Source: an uncultured Mycoplasmatota bacterium (GTDB lineage Bacteria; Bacillota_I; Bacilli_A; Mycoplasmatales; Mycoplasmoidaceae). From it: a DNA stretch of 64,000 bases. This document shows positions 729 to 56,149 of this stretch, piece by piece (the stretch's first letter is position 1; each line of letters starts with the position of its first letter). The DNA lies in NCBI GenBank assembly GCA_949517355.1, contig CATDIL010000004.1:1738-65737 (forward strand). Direction: 5' to 3'. The position numbers and the translations under genes are program-made. The notes beneath the pieces were generated by a model that was not told where the DNA came from, did not search any database, and saw only the letters and a program-made list of their open reading frames with translations.

Positions 729-1883
729 ATGAAAAACACATTTTATTCGGAATTAAAGCAAAATAAATGTTTTAAATTACATAATTTATTCTTTGGTGGA
801 ATCATATTTACATTAGGAATGGTCATAATGCAAAATATGCAATTTTCATTTCAAGGATGAGTTCAATCTATGTATAAACTTTCTGGTTTTCAATTTTGAG
901 ATTGAACTATTCCTTCTGTTGATTATGCTATTCCTATAATTCCATTTTTTTGAATAATTTATGGTGCAGCTATAGCTTCATGAACTATATTACCTATTTT
1001 CTTATATATAGCTTATGGACCTAAAAGGTTTGCAAAATATCTTACGTGCTGTATGTACACATATGTATTCGCAATTCTAATTGCTATGTGCACACCATGC
1101 GATTTAGTTAGTATTAAAAACTATGCACTAGAACAATTGCAGGGTAAAACGGGATTCTTAATTAAACAAACACGGGATTTAATTAAAAATAATGTTACTT
1201 TTGACGCGTTCCCTTCTAATCATTGTTTAAACCAATTTGATTTAATGTTTGGCTTTATCTTATTTAACTTTTTTGATAAAACTAACAGAAAAGATTCAAG
1301 GAAAATATTGACTTGAAAGATTATTTGAACTTCGCTGATTTCGATCTTTACAATGTTAGTTGTCGCTTCTACTTTTATTATGAAAGTTCACTTCTTTGTA
1401 GATTGAATTCCTTCTTTAATTGTTTCATTAAGTGTTTTTGTAATAATGCGCTTTATAAAAACCGATCCTATTACAAGATTTTTCTACAGGTTAATGAATA
1501 GTTTTCAATATTGTTTTTGGTACGTTGGACCTAATGAAGTAAAGAATGATATTTGGAATTGAGCTAAAATTCATCAAGATATATTCAAAATTAATGCTTT
1601 ATCTAAAAAAGAGATTAAAAAACATTTTATTATTACTGACATTGTGATATTTTGTATATATTTGTTTATGCTTCTTGTATTAAACTATTGTCTAGCAGCA
1701 TTGGAAGGTTTTGACACAGGTAATAAAGTTTTTAACTTCTTATTATTAAGAATCGTAATCTACTTCTCTTTAATTGATTTTATGATTTTTGGTGTATATA
1801 TCTTTCATACAATTTATAAAAAACAAAAAATTAAGCAAATAACCCCCCCCCCACTAATCCAAATTAACCTATTAAATTATTAA
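729..1883 (+). CDS. Multi-pass integral membrane protein, possibly PAP2-superfamily-like
   Basis: ATG at 729. One frame (coordinates = 0 mod 3) joins track ORFs 1053..1316 and 1644..1883 through about 10 in-frame TGA, with no TAA or TAG. The protein is strongly hydrophobic. FPSNH and HFFVDW weakly resemble PAP2 motifs C2 and C3. Confidence 0.6.
1843..1852. repeat. Homopolymeric C10 tract
   Basis: aa-cccccccccc-actaatcc read directly. It encodes TPPP, 10 codons before the stop of the 729..1883 gene, and lies 68-77 nt upstream of the ABC permease ATG. Confidence 0.95.
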
Positions 1884-49761: not shown

Positions 49762-50409
49762 TTACTTATTAAGTTTTAGAGGAACGTCTTTTTGTTGCTC
49801 TTCACTTGCATTAAATAATGCAAATGTGTGTAAACCTTGTTTTGTTGCAACAACTTTTGCAGGGAATGTGAATAATTCTTGGTTAAATTGAGTAACAACA
49901 GAGTTATATAGTCTACGACTAGCAGCGATTTCTTGTTCTAAGTATTCTGCACTATTCATTAAATTTTTAATAGCTTCTGTAGAAGCGATCTTAGGGTAGT
50001 TTTCATAAGTTGCTAACAATCTAGCAAATGCTGAATCAATTTTTTGATTTGCTTCATTAAGGTTGTCATCTGTAATTTTATAACTTCTTAATTTAGTAAT
50101 ATCAGATAATAAACCTTTTTCAAAGTCCATAGATGATTTAGTAGCATCTACTAATTTAACTAAAGTATCACGTCTTTGAGCTAGTTGAATTTGAATTCCA
50201 CTAGCTTTTTCATTAATTTGCATTTGCAATCTATTGAATTTATTTTTCTTAGTAATAGAATAAATAAAAAATAAACCAATAGTTACAACTCCTAAAGCGA
50301 TATAGCCAACTTTATCACCAGTTGAACAAGTGGCGTTTATTTGTCTGTTTTGAACATTTGGATTAAATCCTTTTGTTTGTTGTTCATTTTCTCTTGTATC
50401 AATTAACAT
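49762..50409 (-). CDS. lemA: LemA family protein
   Basis: Intact 215-aa ORF with an N-terminal TM segment. QLAQRRDTLVKLVD...YENYP...RRLYNSVVTQFN is the LemA pattern. Confidence 0.88.
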   Translation of the reverse strand: MLIDTRENEQQTKGFNPNVQNRQINATCSTGDKVGYIALGVVTIGLFFIYSITKKNKFNRLQMQINEKASGIQIQLAQRRDTLVKLVDATKSSMDFEKGLLSDITKLRSYKITDDNLNEANQKIDSAFARLLATYENYPKIASTEAIKNLMNSAEYLEQEIAASRRLYNSVVTQFNQELFTFPAKVVATKQGLHTFALFNASEEQQKDVPLKLNK

Positions 50410-50587
50410 AAATTTCTCCTAATACATTAGATTATATAATTTTTGTTATTTAATTAATTTTTAATAATGCAATTCAAATAATAAAACATTTTCAAACAAA
50501 AATTGAACTTTTTTTGGAAAATTTTCGAACAAATTACGTACATTTTTTCGTTATTTTCATATTATGATTTTTTAGAAACAATTAATT

Positions 50588-50902
50588 ATGAACAACTTGG
50601 AAAAAGAAACTATTCTTATTAAGAATATTGAACAATTAAAACAAACTATTAAAGACAAATCTTATAATAGTTATGAATTAGTTGAACCGATTATGATTAA
50701 AGGTGTTAAATGCTCTAAACCAAAGCCTAAAGCTCCAAGATGATTTACAGAGTTCGCCAACGAACAACGTGCATTTAACAAAGTCGTTATTAATCGTTTG
50801 GATAACGTTGACAAACGTTTAGATAAACAAGAAGAATTTAATAAACAAACATCAATGCTTATTAAAACAGTTATTAAATTAAACAACTTAAAAACTGAAT
50901 AG
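50588..50902 (+). CDS. Small coiled-coil protein (104 aa), paralog of 54090..54329
   Basis: The ORF runs from ATG 50588 to TAG 50900 with one internal TGA = Trp. The C-terminal core FANEQRAFNKVVINRLDNVDKRLDKQ is shared with the second copy. Confidence 0.65.
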
Positions 50903-50928
50903 TTATTTCGAAATAGCACAAACCTTGT

Positions 50929-51114
50929 ATGTATATTAATAAAAAGAAAATCCTAGCTTTAATTAGAACTATTTCTAAACAAATAGATGACTGTATTGAT
51001 ATGTGAAAAGAAAATCAGTAAAACTATAAAGTATTATTAATATATTTTTTATTAACAGACAATAATGTAGCTCAAGATGTCTTTTGAGGTCTAATCAACT
51101 CTAAAAAGAATTAA
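50929..51114 (+). pseudogene. Possible gene remnant: 61-codon reading frame interrupted by an in-frame TAA
   Basis: MYINKKKILALIRTISKQIDDCIDMWKENQ-(TAA at 51019)-NYKVLLIYFLLTDNNVAQDVFWGLINSKKN*. It looks protein-like, but I recognise no family. Confidence 0.3.
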
Positions 51115-51122
51115 ATCTAACT

Positions 51123-52298
51123 TTAATATTTAAAATCACTAAACACTAATTCATTATTTTTTATTTCAAAAAATATTAATTTTACAGGGGCACATTTTTC
51201 ACTATATTCTTCATTAAATTTTCTAATTTTTTCTAAATTATTTTTAAAACTTTTTTTATTTAACAGACTTTTTTTACAAATAATTGCTGGGCATATATCA
51301 CACAATCTATTTGTCTTGTAATACTGAATAATTCAATCAACATATCTCTTAATTTGATTAACAATGTAATTTGGAAGTTCTTTACATTTTAATTCAACAG
51401 GTCAAATCTCAACTTGATCATTCCTTTTTAAATCAACTACAAAGTCAATACTCTGCATTCCAACACCACAACCCATTTCATTACCTATAAAATTAATTTT
51501 TACATTATCATTCTTAAAAAAACACTCATCTAATGAAGTATTAATATTTTTTCCAAAAATTTTACAAATATATGATTGTAGATGAACTTCAAATGATTTA
51601 TTATTTTTATTTTTAAATAACAACCTAGGTAAAATATTAATTTCTTCTTTTAGACCTTTATAAGTAGTTTTTACATTTGAATATTCAATTTCTTGAGTAT
51701 CTTCATTAAAAGTAATTTTTCTATTACTATCCAAAACATTCCTAGAGTTTTTATCTCTTATTACTTGTATTAATCTATCACTTTCATATAAAGTAATCAT
51801 AGTGTTACCTCTATTACCTCTTAATTTACGATAAATTAATGACCAAAGCATTTGATATGGATGTAAGATTTGTTTTATTTCATCTAAAGCTTCTCATTCA
51901 GTTATTCCTTTTGGATAAATATTATCTGGTTCAATTTGAACTCTAAAAGTTAAACTTTTACCTAAATCATTAATTAAAAATTGATTTTCACCATTACCTG
52001 CAAAAAATGATCAATCACTTTTTGCTTTGAATACTCCATAAAATTTCCCTTCAGCAAGATTATTTTCATTATGTCTAGTTGTTTCTTGTTGTAAATAAAA
52101 TATTATTTTATCTCCTTTACGAATTCTACAAGCATCTGCAGTCATACTTACCAACATTCTTTCAGCAGTTGCATTTAAATTTGATTCTTCACAATTATTA
52201 AAATCTACTATGTAATCTTTAGAACCAGTTCCAGCAAACATATATTCTAAATGATATTTAAATGTTTTTGAATTAACTATAAAAACGTGAGTAGTCAT
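51123..52298 (-). CDS. Type II restriction endonuclease candidate: PD-(D/E)XK core with an N-terminal region of about 200 aa of unknown type (391 aa)
   Basis: Track ORFs 52011..52298, 51402..51851 and 51123..51305 share one frame and are joined by five TGA; I translated the gaps by hand. The nuclease core is GCGVGMQSIDFVVDL...VEIWPVELKCK (D ... E-x-K). The start overlaps the methyltransferase stop (TAATG). Confidence 0.75.
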
Positions 52299-53017
52299 TA
52301 TTTACTCATCCTTTCTAAAAAACTTTTAAAATATTTTTTATCTATTTCACAACCAATACATTTTCTATTTAGGTTCTTTGCAGCAATAGCTGTTGTTCCA
52401 CTTCCTAAAAAAGTATCAAGGACTAAATCACCAGGGTTAGAATGCTTTTTGATTAAAGCTTCAAATAGTTTTAATGATTTTTGAGTAGGGTGGCATCTAT
52501 TTGATGTATGCTCAATTGGGAAATTATAAATACCATTGTCGTATTTAGAATTAAAAACGGGTTTATTGCCTTTAACTGCAACAACAGCAATCTCTCGTGA
52601 ATTTGTTAAATAATTTATTTTTGAATTTATAGGAACAGGATTTGTTTTAACTCATTCAATAAAACGTAGCTGTTTAAACCCCGAAAGAACTAGCATATTA
52701 GCTAACTCTTGTATTTTCCATAAATCTCAAAAAATAATTACAGTGCCGTGTTGTTTCAAAACTCTATAAAATTCATCACATAATTTAATGAAATTAATTT
52801 CATTACTTTGTTTTTTATCTCAATGGCCAAAGTCCATAGAAACTCTAAATCTATCTGTATAATTACCTTTCAAATCTCCAGATTGAAAATTTGTTTTACG
52901 AGAAATTTGATAAGGTGGATCTGTAAGAATTAAATCAACACTTCTAGAATCAATTTTTTTTAAATAATCAAAACAATCAATGTTTTCAAAACAATTATTA
53001 ATTGTTTTTTTTAACAT
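52298..53017 (-). CDS. Beta-class N6-adenine (or N4-cytosine) DNA methyltransferase (239 aa)
   Basis: ORF 52820..53017 extends through three TGA down to TAA at 52300..52298; I translated the whole stretch by hand. Motif IV LTDPPY comes first, then HPTQKS, then motif I DTFLGSGTT. That order defines the beta class. Confidence 0.88.
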
Positions 53018-53028
53018 ATTAAAATAAA

Positions 53029-53066
53029 AACTCTATAGGCTTAAACCTACAGAGTTATTCCTCCTA
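53029..53066 (-). promoter_or_regulatory. Leader element of the R-M operon: AGGAGG followed by a terminator-like hairpin directly before the methyltransferase ATG
   Basis: On the minus-strand RNA: AGGAGGAAUA-ACUCUGUAGG-UUUAAG-CCUAUAGAGU-UUUUAUUUUAAU-AUG. The stem is 10-11 bp, including one G-U pair. Confidence 0.5.
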
Positions 53067-53092
53067 ATTTAAAAATTACTAAAGAGCAGTTA

Positions 53093-53109
53093 CTCTCTCT
53101 CTCTCTCTC
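53093..53109. repeat. (CT)8C dinucleotide repeat, (GA)n on the minus strand, in a divergent intergenic region
   Basis: ta-ctctctctctctctctc-gag read directly. It lies 76-92 nt upstream of the methyltransferase ATG and 132-148 nt upstream of the PHP gene ATG. Confidence 0.95.
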
Positions 53110-53240
53110 GAGTTGCGACTAAATTCTTTTTATTAGTAGCCATAATTTAATTAGTTTGTTAAAACAATTATATTTAATTATTGTAGTCATATTCTATAAG
53201 AATAACATCATATAAATCAAATATAATTACTAATGAATTT

Positions 53241-54038
53241 ATGGGTAAAAAAGAATTTAAGTTTTTACATAATTATCATTCACATACCATCTATTGTTAT
53301 CATGCAGTTAACACTGTACAAGATGTTATTTTAATGGCGATTAAAAATGGTTGAAAAACAATTGGTATTAGTGAACATGCTCCATTAAACACTCATAGAA
53401 AATTTAGATTAAATTGAGATACTATTGATGACTATATCCAAGAAGTTTCTTTTTATAAAAGAAAATATAAAGATCAAATTACAGTTTTATGTGGATTAGA
53501 AGCAGAATATGATGGTTCTCAATATGAATACTATAAAAAGCTAAGAGATAAAAAAGGGATAGATTATATGATCTTAGGTAACCATAATATTGGTAACCCA
53601 AGTGATTGCAAAGTATGAAATGTAAATAATCCTGATTTATTTCAATACTATAAGCAATATGAAGAAGCAGCTAAAAGTGGTTTATTTGCTTATTGTGCAC
53701 ATCCAGATATTATTTACAGATATTATCTTAAGTGAGATGCGGATGCTATTAAAATAGCAAAGAAAATTATCGCTACTTCAATCAAATATGATTTTCCATT
53801 AGGTTTTAACATTAATGGTTTGAGAATGAAACTTGTAGATTTTGATTATCCTACTGATATGTTTTGAGAATTAGTAGCTAAATCAAAAGCTAAAGTAATT
53901 ATTGAAACAGATGCTCATGATCCATACACTATGAGTCAAGAAATGGTTGACAAAGGTGTTGCATTAGTAAAACAATGAGGGTTAGAAAAGAATTTAATTA
54001 ATAAATTAACTTTACAAAGCAAGCGTTTAAAGAAATAA
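53241..54038 (+). CDS. PHP-domain (histidinol-phosphatase family) phosphoesterase
   Basis: 265-aa ORF open with seven TGA = Trp, so it is absent from the track. HSHT..C.HA, GISEHAP, GLEAEY, AHPD and ETDAH metal-binding blocks are present. Confidence 0.8.
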
Positions 54039-54089
54039 ACCTATTTAAGGAATATCACCTCTAAATAAATAGAGTCATATAATATAAAT

Positions 54090-54329
54090 ATGGGGAAATA
54101 CCATTATCAAATTGAAAAACAAGAAACTAAAACATCAGGAGTTGTTGATTTAGTCAAAGTCAAAAAAACTTCACGTGGTGGTAAAAAACCATCAAAATTT
54201 TCAACTCGTGATTTATTGTTAGGATTTATTGATGAACAACGACAGTTTAATAAACAAATTATCAATCGTTTAGATAATGTAGATAATCGTTTAAACAATC
54301 TCGTTAAGCAAAACAACCTTAAAGAATAA
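54090..54329 (+). CDS. Small coiled-coil protein (79 aa), paralog of 50588..50902
   Basis: Intact ORF. The core FIDEQRQFNKQIINRLDNVDNRLNNLVKQNNLKE is shared with the first copy. Confidence 0.65.
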   Translation: MGKYHYQIEKQETKTSGVVDLVKVKKTSRGGKKPSKFSTRDLLLGFIDEQRQFNKQIINRLDNVDNRLNNLVKQNNLKE

Positions 54330-54341
54330 TTAAATCTATTA

Positions 54342-54376
54342 AAAATACACTTAGAATCTTTGGGTGTATTTTTTCT
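54342..54376 (+). terminator. Probable rho-independent terminator
   Basis: AAAATACAC-(13-nt loop)-GTGTATTTT followed by further T residues. Confidence 0.5.
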
Positions 54377-54430
54377 TTTACTTTAACTATTTAAAAACAA
54401 AGAATAAATATAATATTTAATAAAATAAAT

Positions 54431-56149
54431 ATGATGCAAAAAAAGCGTTTTGTGGATAAAGGTTTAAAAGCACATAAATTATATGCACAGACACCTTTGT
54501 TTAAAGCTGTATTACTTGTAGCTATTCCTGGGTTATTAATATCATTTATGTCAGGAATTTATGTTTTTGCTGATCAATTATTATTGTCTTTATTAGTACC
54601 AGAAGATCCTGTTCATAATATGGAGAAGATTTATTTAACTCAAGGAATTACTCAGGATAATTTAGATTGGATTAAAGATAATGTTAAAAATTTTGCTGAC
54701 ACTAAACAAATGGTAAAGAGTTCAATTGCTATCACTTTACCAATTATGATGGTAATTAATGCTGTTCCAAATATTGCAGCAATTGGTGCTGGATCAATGT
54801 ATGGTCAATGTATTGCAAAAGATAATAAACCTAAAGCATTGCAAATTTGAAAATCTACATTTTATTGTGCAATTTGCATCGGCTTATTATCATCATTAGT
54901 TTTTTATTCAATAAATGACTCTGTATTAAAATTAATGGCAGGTCATATACCACATTGAGAAAATGATGAACACCAAGTAAATGAATATTTTCAAATTGCT
55001 TATAGTACTCAAATTTTGTGAAGTCATGAATTTCTAGATATTCTATCATGAAGTTCAATTCTTAATGTGTTCATTTTATATTTCTCTTTTATGGTAAGAG
55101 CAGAGGGTAAACTTTCATTTGTTACAATTGCAGAAGTATTCTGCAATTTAGCAAATGTATTGTTTGATTATGTCTATATCAAGTATTTTCATACAGGTAT
55201 GAAAGGTGGAGGTTATGCCACACTTACTGGTTGAGCAATCAATTTTGTTGTTTATGCTGTATATATCTGAGTGCTTGGAATTCAGGGTAAAACTTGGATG
55301 AAATATAAAGACTTATTACCAAAAAATGGTATTCCAATATCTTACAACCTTCTTGTACCAATTGTAATTATTGGTTTATCTGTATTCTTAAGAAACTTTA
55401 GTAACGCATTTGCTAACACTGCATTTATGACGTTATTGGGTAATGTAGCTGAAAAAACTGGTAATGATTCACAATATTGACAAAGTATCTCAGGAGCTGT
55501 ATGGCCAGTAGGTAGTTTATTCTTTTATGCAATTTTTGGTATAGCAGATGGTGTGAGAACATTGGTTGCATACAACTATGCAAGAAATTTTTATGCAAGA
55601 ATCAAAAAAACATATTGATATGCAACATTACTATCATTTATATATGGTATTGTAATTTATACGTGCTTGGCAACATTCTTAGGCCAATGATTAATTGGTT
55701 TATTTGATTTAGATCCATCAATGGCTGCTCAAACATTGAAATACATGAGAATTCAAGTGATATTTATTCCTTGCGTTGCATTATCAATTGGTGGATTACT
55801 AATGTTCCAAGCTACAAACCAAATGGCTATGGCCAACTTTATTGCTGTTTTACAAGCATTAATAGTGTTCCCTATAGCTTCTGGTACTATGTATCCTGTT
55901 GCTATCAATCTTAATGATCCGTTAATGTTTGTAATAACTAACCCATTAAATACAGGGGTAGCTGGTTTGATAATTACATGCATCTCAATTGTGTATTTAT
56001 ACAAATATCTAGGTAGAACTAGATTTGATATGAGGGTAAATACAGGAACAAGAATAGAAAAAATAAAGATTTCTGTACCATCTAATGCTAAAAAGATGTC
56101 ATATGCTGAAAGAGAACTACAGAAATCTCTTATTCAATCATCTAAATAA
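54431..56149 (+). CDS. MATE-like multidrug/oligosaccharidyl-lipid/polysaccharide (MOP) superfamily transporter
   Basis: ORFs 54431, 55271 and 55721 share one frame via TGA. The 572-aa protein has about 12 hydrophobic segments. This is a family-level call only. Confidence 0.65.

What the first reader, a model, noticed from the sequence alone, without database searches (positions are those of the whole stretch)
53093..53109. (CT)8 / (GA)8 simple-sequence repeat in the divergent promoter region between the R-M operon and the PHP gene
A 17-nt perfect dinucleotide repeat with 50 percent GC is very unlikely to arise by chance in this extremely AT-rich genome. It lies 76-92 nt upstream of the methyltransferase ATG and 132-148 nt upstream of the PHP ATG, where promoters or 5' leaders for both must sit. 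Changes in repeat-unit number are the classic route to phase-variable expression in mycoplasmas and other small-genome pathogens. A phase-variable R-M or methyltransferase would make this locus a candidate phasevarion controlled at the promoter or leader level, rather than by an intragenic repeat.
Basis: partly seen in the sequence, partly recalled or inferred. Interest (0 to 1): 0.6.

Follow-up and report, generated by a model that had tools for sequence, protein, structure and literature searches.

The report
Slippery GA repeat switch before restriction-modification genes
The CT/GA repeat is a real, hypervariable tract inside a tiny upstream reading frame that ends before a transcription terminator, so it most likely switches a restriction-modification operon between low and high expression at random. 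This mechanism has so far been proven only for streptococcal pili, and here it appears in an uncultured gut mycoplasma.

Summary
The (CT)8C tract at 53093-53109 is real and not a chance occurrence. On the gene strand it reads (GA)8G and lies inside a short ATG-initiated leader ORF, not in a promoter. Next come a TAA stop, a strong intrinsic terminator whose stem shows compensatory changes, and then the methyltransferase ATG.

A second copy of the cassette precedes another R-M operon on contig C5 of the same genome. At least 25 similar cassettes precede R-M or surface-protein genes in 12 of 41 genomes of this uncultured gut Mycoplasmatales genus.

Assemblies that encode the identical methyltransferase carry 8 to 12 GA units. 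Three of them match the window exactly over about 3 kb on both sides, so the tract is hypermutable.

One repeat-length class in three lets the leader ORF run into the 5' arm of the terminator. The other two classes stop 24-35 nt before it.

The best reading is a phase-variable leader-peptide attenuator, as in Streptococcus gallolyticus pil1/pil3 (Danne 2014). Here it is built on a dinucleotide repeat and controls whole Type II R-M operons. In the window the switch is in the predicted low state.

Earlier notes of this scan report the same kind of switch in CPR bacteria and gut Clostridia, always before surface-protein genes.

The tool for sequencing runs was closed, so expression and within-sample heterogeneity are untested.

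The parts
53167..53172 (-). Candidate -10 box (TATAAT) for the leader transcript, 24 nt upstream of the leader ATG. The transcription start is not mapped.
   Evidence: Read directly from the sequence. TATAAT or TATAAA/TATAAG boxes sit at the same relative place in related cassettes. The consensus scan also lists TTGATT-18-TAGAAT at 53220..53191 on this strand.
53090..53143 (-). Leader ORF as assembled: ATG at 53143..53141, MATNKKNLVATRERERE, TAA at 53092..53090. This is the short, predicted low/OFF frame.
   Evidence: Machine translation. The same ATG-(GA)n-TAA layout is found in the C5 copy and in about 25 related loci.
53093..53109 (-). (GA)8G hypermutable tract, written (CT)8C on the + strand. 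It encodes (Arg-Glu)n and sets the leader reading frame.
   Evidence: Alleles of 17, 19, 21, 23 and 25 nt occur in other assemblies of the same locus.
53079..53081 (-). TAG stop of the second short frame (+11 after the repeat). It is used with 21-nt alleles.
53047..53094 (-). Long-frame tail SNCSLVIFKLGGITL, ending at TAG 53049..53047 inside the 5' arm of the terminator. It is in frame with the leader ATG only for 19- or 25-nt alleles (predicted high/ON).
   Evidence: The tail is conserved as S-N-[CY]-S-L-[IV]-x-F-x-x-[GK]-G-x-x-[LF]-stop in 8 diverged cassettes, with synonymous and conservative changes.
53060..53065 (-). AGGAGG (Shine-Dalgarno-like, and also the Gly-Gly codons of the tail), 10 nt before the long-frame stop. 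Its role is unknown.
   Evidence: GGAGG is invariant in the 7 aligned cassettes, but the sequence is GAAAGG in a metagenomic relative.
53029..53056 (-). Intrinsic terminator hairpin: 11-12 bp stem with a 4-6 nt loop.
   Evidence: Terminator scan found 1 site against 0.0 expected in shuffles. The hairpin is present in both the MFE and centroid folds, and the whole leader has z = -3.1. Across 7 cassettes 100% of cells are paired, 4 of 11 pairs change on both sides, and 0 of 500 shuffles reach this.
53019..53028 (-). U-rich tail of the terminator (TTTATTTTAA), directly before the methyltransferase ATG.
52298..53017 (-). Beta-class N6/N4 DNA methyltransferase (239 aa), first gene of the controlled operon. 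It has no promoter-sized spacer of its own after the terminator.
   Evidence: PF01555 E=1e-39. PADLOC MTase_II E=3e-54.
51123..52298 (-). Putative restriction nuclease (391 aa). Its start overlaps the methyltransferase stop. It has an EVE/PUA-like N-terminal region and a NucS/DUF91-like C-terminal region.
   Evidence: Weak hits only to PH1033 (EVE) and NucS. More than 2200 homologues exist, some named DUF91/NucS. Homologues lie directly after, or one gene after, an N6_N4 MTase in three distant contexts.

Best explanation
The repeat is the variable part of a phase-variable leader-peptide attenuator.

How it would work:
- A promoter upstream of 53143 starts a transcript that first encodes a short leader ORF containing (GA)n.
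- Slipped-strand mispairing adds or removes GA units, moving the ribosome among three frames.
- In two frames translation stops at the TAA directly after the repeat or at a TAG 11 nt later. That is 35 or 24 nt before the hairpin. The terminator then folds and most transcripts end before the methyltransferase (low/OFF).
- In the third frame (19 or 25 nt here) the ribosome reads a conserved 15-residue tail and stops at a TAG inside the 5' arm of the terminator. This keeps the hairpin from forming, so RNA polymerase reads into the methyltransferase-nuclease operon (high/ON).
- The window's 17-nt allele is in the TAA frame, the predicted low state, and so is the second cassette on contig C5.

What is shown: the repeat, its hypervariability, the ORF geometry, the conserved and covarying terminator, and the recurrence of the cassette.

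What is inferred by analogy with S. gallolyticus pil1: that translation gates termination, and which frame is ON.
For: 1. Geometry. The ATG lies 34 nt before the run, the TAA directly after it, the hairpin at +36/38..+61/63, and the long-frame TAG at +43.

2. A paralogous cassette at G000:C5:8216-8231 precedes a different operon (M1-M2-REase_II). It has the same repeat and the same +0/+11/+43 stops, but a different hairpin sequence.

3. Hairpin covariation: 100% of cells paired, 4 of 11 pairs changed on both sides, and no shuffle or slid register comes close.

4. At least 25 loci in 12 of 41 genomes of the genus share the layout -10 box, short ATG ORF, (GA)n, TAA, terminator of -8 kcal/mol or stronger, then a gene. 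The genes are R-M genes of four kinds, lipoproteins or surface proteins, and in one locus a zinc-dependent alcohol dehydrogenase.

5. Hypervariability.
- For the C4 locus, 13 loci from 11 distinct contigs carry alleles of 17, 19 (two contigs), 21 (four), 23 and 25 (three) nt.
- The C5 locus shows 17, 21, 23 and 23 nt.
- The contigs from three assemblies have 0 mismatches over 929 nt upstream and 1344-2070 nt downstream of the repeat, yet carry 21, 21 and 25 nt against 17 in the window.
- All three frames occur among strains.

6. In two relatives (L011, L038) the same 5' module reads, in the long frame only, through the hairpin into an EcoRI-methylase-like protein that has no other start codon. 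This independently marks the long frame as the productive one.

7. Experimental precedent for exactly this logic exists (PMC3894217).

8. No Rho RNA-binding domain was found in the genome, which is 90% complete. This fits reliance on an intrinsic terminator for polarity.
Against: - There is no transcript, protein or methylation data.
- The transcription start is not mapped.
- In AT-rich DNA one frame staying open for 14 codons is not rare by chance (roughly 0.4 per frame by my estimate). The 'one frame reaches the hairpin' rule is therefore convincing only together with the conservation.
- The 3' arm of the hairpin contains a -10-like hexamer (TAGAGT or TAGAAT) 10-12 nt before the methyltransferase ATG in the R-M-type cassettes, so a constitutive near-leaderless transcript is not excluded.
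- The leader has no clear Shine-Dalgarno sequence. This is weak evidence, because only 19% of long ORFs in this genome have one.
- The +11 stop lies only 24 nt from the hairpin, slightly nearer than the 28 nt or more seen in low-expressing S. gallolyticus strains.
Confidence: 0.66

Rival explanations
1. The leader ORF is an independent small-protein gene ended by its own terminator. The methyltransferase is transcribed constitutively from a -10-like element in the 3' arm of the hairpin as a nearly leaderless mRNA. The repeat would then only switch the small peptide between a 17-residue and a 32-residue form.
For: TAGAGT, TAGAAT or TATAAG hexamers lie 10-12 nt before the R-M start codons in the R-M-type cassettes. 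The 15-residue tail is conserved at the amino-acid level.
Against: The hexamer is the forced complement of the TAG-containing 5' arm. The surface-protein cassettes of the same genus have no such hexamer, and they have a long spacer with a Shine-Dalgarno sequence after the terminator. A 32-residue peptide with no family would have to be linked to seven unrelated R-M genes for no stated reason. In the fused variants the long frame is the methyltransferase frame.
Confidence: 0.1
2. The repeat acts without translation. Its length would change an RNA or DNA structure (pairing of the GA run with the downstream CUCUUU or polypyrimidine stretch, or H-DNA), and through that alter termination, pausing or mRNA stability.
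For: The fold pairs the 3' end of the GA run with CUCUUU. Polypyrimidine stretches follow the repeat in many cassettes.
Against: A long homogeneous GA run can pair in many registers, so adding or removing one unit should barely change the structure. This reading does not explain the conserved ATG 2-35 nt upstream, the almost universal TAA directly after the run, or the stop placed inside the hairpin arm.
Confidence: 0.1
3. The tract is a neutral microsatellite: a decayed remnant of the 5' end of an older repeat-bearing gene, carried along when R-M cassettes recombined, with no present regulatory role.
For: The same 5' module (MATNKKNL...) is fused in frame to long ORFs elsewhere (L036, L038), so recombination at or near the tract does occur. 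Both copies in this genome are in the short frame.
Against: The terminator keeps its pairing through compensatory changes, and the tail keeps its frame and length, across cassettes whose flanks have diverged. The perfect repeat is maintained at 15-35 nt in dozens of loci in a genome with 28% GC. All three frames are seen among near-identical strains.
Confidence: 0.08
4. The repeat is a promoter or spacer element whose length tunes initiation of the methyltransferase promoter, the divergent PHP promoter, or both.
For: It lies in a 223-nt divergent intergenic region.
Against: It lies inside an ORF, downstream of the TATAAT at 53172..53167, and is separated from the methyltransferase by a terminator. 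It is 132-148 nt from the PHP ATG, which has its own TATAAT close by. The same cassette occurs where no divergent gene is present.
Confidence: 0.03

Closest known systems
Streptococcus gallolyticus pil1/pil3 phase-variable leader-peptide attenuator (Danne, Dubrac, Trieu-Cuot, Dramsi 2014, PMC3894217)
   Same: - A simple-sequence repeat sits inside a short leader ORF, followed by a stem-loop terminator before the regulated operon.
- Out-of-frame slippage moves the leader stop from well upstream of the hairpin to within it or beyond it.
- Stops 28 nt or more upstream gave low expression, and stops in or at the hairpin gave high expression.
- The result is stochastic low/high switching.
   Different: - The repeat unit is GA (2 nt), not GCAGA (5 nt).
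- The host is a wall-less, Rho-lacking, TGA=Trp Mycoplasmatales bacterium.
- The regulated genes are complete Type II R-M operons, not pili.
- The long-frame tail peptide is conserved.
- The regulated gene starts 11-14 nt after the terminator, without a Shine-Dalgarno sequence of its own.
- Some copies are fused in frame to the gene.
- Nothing has been tested experimentally here.
Mycoplasma type III mod genes with intragenic (AG)n followed by TAA (M. mycoides subsp. capri MmyCI, PMC3498834; M. agalactiae, cited in PMC12898733)
   Same: An AG/GA dinucleotide tract in a Mollicute, with a TAA directly after the tract, that switches a DNA methyltransferase. The same intragenic type was found in other families of the order.
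   Different: In those cases the repeat lies about 320 nt inside the mod coding sequence and acts purely by truncating Mod. There is no leader ORF and no terminator. Type III Res also needs Mod, so switching is inherently safe. Here the repeat lies outside the methyltransferase gene and would switch M and R together at the transcript level.
Promoter-spacer repeats of mycoplasma surface antigens (M. hyorhinis vlp poly(A); M. mycoides Vmm and M. capricolum Vmc TA repeats). These examples are from my own knowledge; only the vmc genes are mentioned in PMC3498834.
   Same: Slippage of a short repeat upstream of a contingency gene in a Mollicute.
   Different: Those repeats lie between the -35 and -10 elements and change promoter strength. 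Here the repeat is transcribed and lies in an ORF.

Membership tests
Phase-variable leader-peptide attenuator (S. gallolyticus pil1 type) | Simple-sequence repeat inside a short leader ORF downstream of the promoter | tested here: met
   The ATG at 53143 is open through the (GA)8G run to the TAA at 53092. A TATAAT lies 24 nt upstream. The transcription start is not mapped.
Phase-variable leader-peptide attenuator (S. gallolyticus pil1 type) | Repeat number varies between clones or strains with otherwise identical sequence | tested here: met
   Alleles of 17-25 nt. Contigs from three assemblies have 0 mismatches in their flanks (929 nt upstream, 1344-2070 nt downstream) yet carry 21, 21 and 25 nt against 17 in the window. 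The second locus shows 17, 21, 23 and 23 nt.
Phase-variable leader-peptide attenuator (S. gallolyticus pil1 type) | Intrinsic terminator between the leader ORF and the regulated operon | tested here: met
   Predicted hairpin plus U-run, with compensatory changes across 7 cassettes. Its function as a terminator has not been shown.
Phase-variable leader-peptide attenuator (S. gallolyticus pil1 type) | The frame decides whether the leader stop lies far upstream of the hairpin or within/beyond it | tested here: met
   Stops lie at +0, +11 and +43, and the hairpin starts at +36/38. The same holds in 33 loci or alleles.
Phase-variable leader-peptide attenuator (S. gallolyticus pil1 type) | Translation of the long leader raises transcription of the operon; expression is bimodal | not testable with these tools
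   This needs RNA or reporter data.
Phasevarion (phase-variable methyltransferase controlling a regulon) | Methyltransferase expression switches through a hypermutable repeat | tested here: inconclusive
   The repeat is hypermutable and placed where it could gate the operon, but expression was not measured.
Phasevarion (phase-variable methyltransferase controlling a regulon) | The methylation state changes expression of other genes | not testable with these tools
   No methylome or transcriptome data are available.
Promoter-spacer SSR switch | Repeat lies between or upstream of the promoter hexamers of the regulated gene | tested here: not met
   The repeat is 58 nt downstream of the candidate -10, inside an ORF, with a terminator between it and the gene.
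Intragenic SSR in a methyltransferase gene (Mycoplasma type III mod type) | Repeat lies within the methyltransferase coding sequence, so that slippage truncates the enzyme | tested here: not met
   All three frames stop between the repeat and the methyltransferase ATG. The feature is met only in the fused relatives L011 and L038.

The most novel reading that the evidence does not exclude
This gut Mycoplasmatales genus may own a portable switch module: promoter, MATNKK-type leader start, (GA)n, TAA, conserved SNCSLIxF..GG..L tail, terminator. The module would be shuffled by recombination at or near the GA tract onto unrelated Type II, IIG and EcoRI-methylase-like R-M genes and onto surface-protein genes. 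For stand-alone Type II R-M operons it would provide a low/high switch rather than a null/on switch. Terminator read-through would keep enough methylase to protect the chromosome while restriction strength varies. The conserved tail would act as more than a spacer, for example as a ribosome-arrest peptide or a peptide that favours re-initiation.
Probability: 0.2. Interest if true: 0.75.

Novelty: new variant of a known kind. Interest (0 to 1): 0.55.

Why it matters
Phase variation of R-M systems is known mainly for Type III mod and Type I hsdS genes, where switching off is safe. A stand-alone Type II methylase-nuclease operon is dangerous to switch by a frameshift inside one gene. Losing M alone kills the cell, and switching R on over an unmethylated genome does too.

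A repeat in a leader peptide that gates a terminator would switch M and R together at the transcript level. It would probably switch between low and high rather than null and on. If confirmed, this would:
- extend the S. gallolyticus mechanism, proven so far only for pili, to genome defence and possibly to epigenetic regulation;
- show the mechanism operating in a Rho-less Mollicute with a minimal genome;
- add to this scan's earlier sightings in CPR bacteria and Clostridia, suggesting that (GA)n leader attenuators are a widespread and under-recognised class of contingency switch in host-associated uncultured bacteria.

It also gives annotators a practical rule: look for a small ORF and a terminator around 'intergenic' microsatellites.

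Tried and rejected
- Rfam scan of 50000-56000 at E up to 1 found no known RNA family.
- My first hand translation put the leader in frame with the SNCSL tail. Machine translation showed this was wrong: in this genome both copies stop at the TAA right after the repeat.
- I tested whether a change in repeat number could fuse the leader to the methyltransferase. It cannot, because all three frames stop before the ATG.
- An exact-pattern scan of GTDB genome contigs found the R-M-type cassette only in two other MAGs of the same genus.
- The metagenome scan added only one true relative. The other five hits were chance (GA)4 matches in GC-rich DNA.
- A start-stop mini-ORF after the AGGAGG (TTG-TAG) is present in G006 only and is not conserved, so I rejected it.
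- I considered whether the hairpin brings the AGGAGG close to the methyltransferase ATG. The spacing would still be about 16 nt, and the AGGAGG is not kept in L115, so this gained no support.
- Pfam, NCBIfam, PADLOC and PDB sequence searches gave no significant family for the 391-aa protein. Its nuclease role rests on named homologues and conserved synteny.

Full report
**1. Observation**

The + strand at 53093-53109 is CTCTCTCTCTCTCTCTC, 8.5 perfect CT units. Allowing one mismatch, it is the only such site in the window, and none of 100 dinucleotide-preserving shuffles produced one.

The window lies on contig C4 of a 636-kb, nine-contig assembly with 28% GC. The genome reads TGA as Trp: the genes match database proteins only 'with_TGA=W'. 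Genome-wide there are only three GA/CT runs of 5 or more units.

A PF01555 N6/N4 DNA methyltransferase lies on the minus strand at 52298-53017, followed by an overlapping 391-aa ORF at 51123-52298. A PHP/HisJ-family gene lies on the plus strand from 53241.

**2. What surrounds the repeat**

Read on the methyltransferase strand, the region shows these features in order:
- a TATAAT at 53172..53167;
- an ATG at 53143;
- 34 nt later, the run (GA)8G;
- a TAA directly after the run (53092..53090);
- an AGGAGG;
- a 12-bp hairpin at 53056..53029, followed by TTTATTTTAA;
- the methyltransferase ATG at 53017.

The terminator scan found this one site against 0.0 expected. The hairpin appears in both the MFE and centroid folds of the leader, which has z = -3.1. 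Rfam has no family for the region.

Machine translation gives the assembled leader ORF as MATNKKNLVATRERERE-stop. A second frame stops at a TAG 11 nt after the run. The third frame reads SNCSLVIFKLGGITL and stops at a TAG (53049..53047) that lies inside the 5' arm of the hairpin.

**3. A second copy and a family**

The same repeat, with the invariant flank ACTC(GA)nGTAACTGCTCT, occurs at G000:C5:8216-8231. That copy lies upstream of a different operon: two N6_N4 methyltransferases and a PADLOC REase_II protein (E = 6e-67). It has the same +0/+11/+43 stops and a terminator of different sequence.

A BLAST search of the 129-nt element against the 41 species-representative genomes of the genus, plus fetched loci, shows at least 25 loci in 12 genomes with the same architecture. 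The architecture is: a -10 box, a short ATG ORF, (GA)n of 15-35 nt, usually a TAA right after it, an intrinsic terminator of -8 to -16.5 kcal/mol at +30 to +50, then a gene.

The downstream genes fall into these groups:
- N6_N4 methyltransferases;
- MmeI/N6_Mtase-type fused enzymes;
- EcoRI-methylase-like proteins;
- lipoproteins and membrane-anchored surface proteins, one with He_PIG Ig domains;
- in one locus, a zinc-dependent alcohol dehydrogenase.

Named relatives are uncultured Mycoplasmatales/Mycoplasmatota MAGs, one of them from the mouse gut catalogue.

In a sample of 401 genomes of the order, (GA)n-TAA tracts outside this genus are ordinary intragenic repeats without a terminator. Examples are type III mod genes and the 5' coding regions of other genes.

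**4. The terminator is under selection**

I aligned seven R-M-type cassettes from the end of the repeat to the gene ATG. All cells of the 11-pair stem form standard pairs. Four pairs change on both sides. No shuffle out of 500, and no slid register, comes close.

The long-frame stop lies in the 5' arm in every case, including an eighth cassette from a metagenome. The 15-residue tail varies mostly by synonymous changes (TTA/CTA, GGA/GGG, CTG/CTA/TTG) or conservative ones (V/I, K/R, L/V/F). This suggests the tail is translated, but the sample is too small for a formal test.

**5. The repeat is hypermutable**

I therefore looked up assemblies that encode exactly the same methyltransferase or PHP protein.

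- The 13 loci that span the repeat come from 11 distinct contigs. These carry 17, 19 (two contigs), 21 (four), 23 and 25 (three) nt.
- Three further Logan contigs end inside the tract.
- Contigs from ERZ13632114, ERZ13632118 and ERZ13632111 have zero mismatches to the window over 929 nt upstream and 1344-2070 nt downstream, yet carry 21, 21 and 25 nt against 17 in the window.
- The C5 locus shows 17, 21, 23 and 23 nt.
- All changes are in whole GA units, and all three frames occur.

**6. Mechanism**

For this locus, alleles of 17 or 23 nt end the leader at the TAA, 35 nt before the hairpin. Alleles of 21 nt end it at +11, 24 nt before the hairpin. Alleles of 19 or 25 nt carry the ribosome to the TAG inside the hairpin arm.

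This is the logic demonstrated for S. gallolyticus pil1/pil3. There, GCAGA slippage lengthens a leader peptide whose translation into a stem-loop terminator relieves premature termination. Isolates whose leader stops 28 nt or more before the hairpin were mostly low expressers (PMC3894217).

Two relatives give internal support for 'long frame = ON'. In L011 and L038 the same 5' module, in the long frame only, continues through the hairpin into an EcoRI-methylase-like protein that has no alternative start.

No Rho RNA-binding domain was found in this 90%-complete genome, so an intrinsic terminator is the available route to polarity. From my own knowledge, physically coupled transcription and translation has been visualised in Mycoplasma pneumoniae, which makes ribosome-dependent antitermination plausible in this group.

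The window's allele, and the C5 allele in the same assembly, are both in the predicted low state.

It is my inference, not a shown result, that terminator read-through would make this a low/high switch rather than a null/on switch. A low/high switch would be safer for a Type II R-M pair.

**7. The regulated genes**

The methyltransferase matches PADLOC MTase_II (E = 3e-54). The 391-aa partner has no significant Pfam, PADLOC or PDB match. It has only weak EVE-like and NucS-like signals.

It nevertheless belongs to a family of more than 2200 proteins, about 52% identical across distant phyla and sometimes named DUF91/NucS. Homologues lie directly after, or one gene after, an N6_N4 methyltransferase in three unrelated contexts. 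I read the pair as a Type II-like R-M system, by inference.

**8. Comparison and novelty**

The mechanism class is known (Danne 2014). AG repeats followed by TAA inside mycoplasma type III mod genes are also known (PMC3498834; PMC12898733).

Full-text searches found no paper that combines a leader peptide, a terminator and phase-variable R-M systems.

Earlier notes of this scan describe (GA)n leader-ORF/terminator switches in CPR bacteria and gut Clostridia, all before surface-protein, pilin or phage genes.

I therefore rate the finding a new variant of a known kind. It differs in repeat unit, host clade and target: whole R-M operons share a cassette with surface-protein genes. It also has a conserved tail peptide and fused intermediates.

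**9. Limits**

Everything about expression is inferred. Three things remain open: a -10-like hexamer in the 3' arm of the hairpin, the unmapped transcription start, and the modest statistical weight of 'one open frame' in AT-rich DNA. They are reflected in the rival explanations and in the confidence of 0.66.

Noticed in passing
G000:C5:5452-8263 (outside the window): Second copy of the switch: leader MSINKIFVVTRERERE-stop, (GA)8G, and a perfectly palindromic 12-bp terminator. It lies before an operon of two N6_N4 methyltransferases (274 and 256 aa) and a PADLOC REase_II protein (373 aa), which probably form a system for an asymmetric site. Repeat alleles of 17, 21, 23 and 23 nt occur in other assemblies.
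   Followed up: yes
window 51123-52298 (-): The 391-aa partner of the methyltransferase belongs to a very widespread family. There are more than 2200 homologues, about 52% identical from CPR bacteria to Bacteroidales and Marinimicrobia. The family has an EVE/PUA-like N-terminus and a NucS/DUF91-like C-terminus, lies next to N6_N4 methyltransferases, and is absent from the Pfam and PADLOC restriction-enzyme models. An EVE domain, which usually reads modified bases, in a nuclease paired with a methylase is unusual.
   Followed up: partly
window 51123-54038 compared with L059-L068: In other strains the R-M side of the repeat is almost identical to the window (0-4 mismatches in up to 2070 nt). The PHP side differs by about 2.5% (13-25 mismatches in 929 nt). 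This suggests the R-M cassette spread or was exchanged recently between strains.
   Followed up: partly
L060 (SRR32520761), L036 (G054:C7:1-1600), L038 (G006:C9): The leader 5' module is mosaic. One strain of this very locus carries ...AATTTAACCGCGCTC instead of ...AATTTAGTCGCAACTC before the repeat, which is one nt shorter and so shifts the frame rule. The same MATNKKNL module is joined in other genomes to a long in-frame ORF or to a fused methylase. Recombination or gene conversion seems to occur at or near the GA tract.
   Followed up: partly
G000 contigs C1, C2, C4, C5, C7 (for example C1:123498-123522, C1:151-169, C2:1513-1528, C5:1358-1374, C7:196-211, C4:70973-70986): There are twelve poly(A) or poly(T) tracts of 14-25 nt. 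Seven of them lie within 200 to 1600 nt of contig ends. They may be further contingency loci or members of a repeated gene family that breaks the assembly.
   Followed up: no
window 1843-1852 and 61641-61661: A C10 homopolymer lies between a membrane-protein gene and a large ABC operon. A (TA)10.5 tract is the other conspicuous simple repeat in the window.
   Followed up: no
L047 (G045:C11:6300-9300): A (GA)10G-TAA-terminator cassette lies before a zinc-dependent alcohol/sorbitol dehydrogenase-like gene rather than a surface or R-M gene. My scan found no ATG for a leader there.
   Followed up: no
G046 (L008, L042-L046): Six cassettes with nearly identical terminators (GCAAGAATTAGCATTCGCTAGTTCTTGC) precede paralogous lipoprotein or surface-protein genes in one genome. 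Five are in short frames and one stops 4 nt before the hairpin. This is what would be expected if only one or a few members of an antigen family are expressed at a time.
   Followed up: partly
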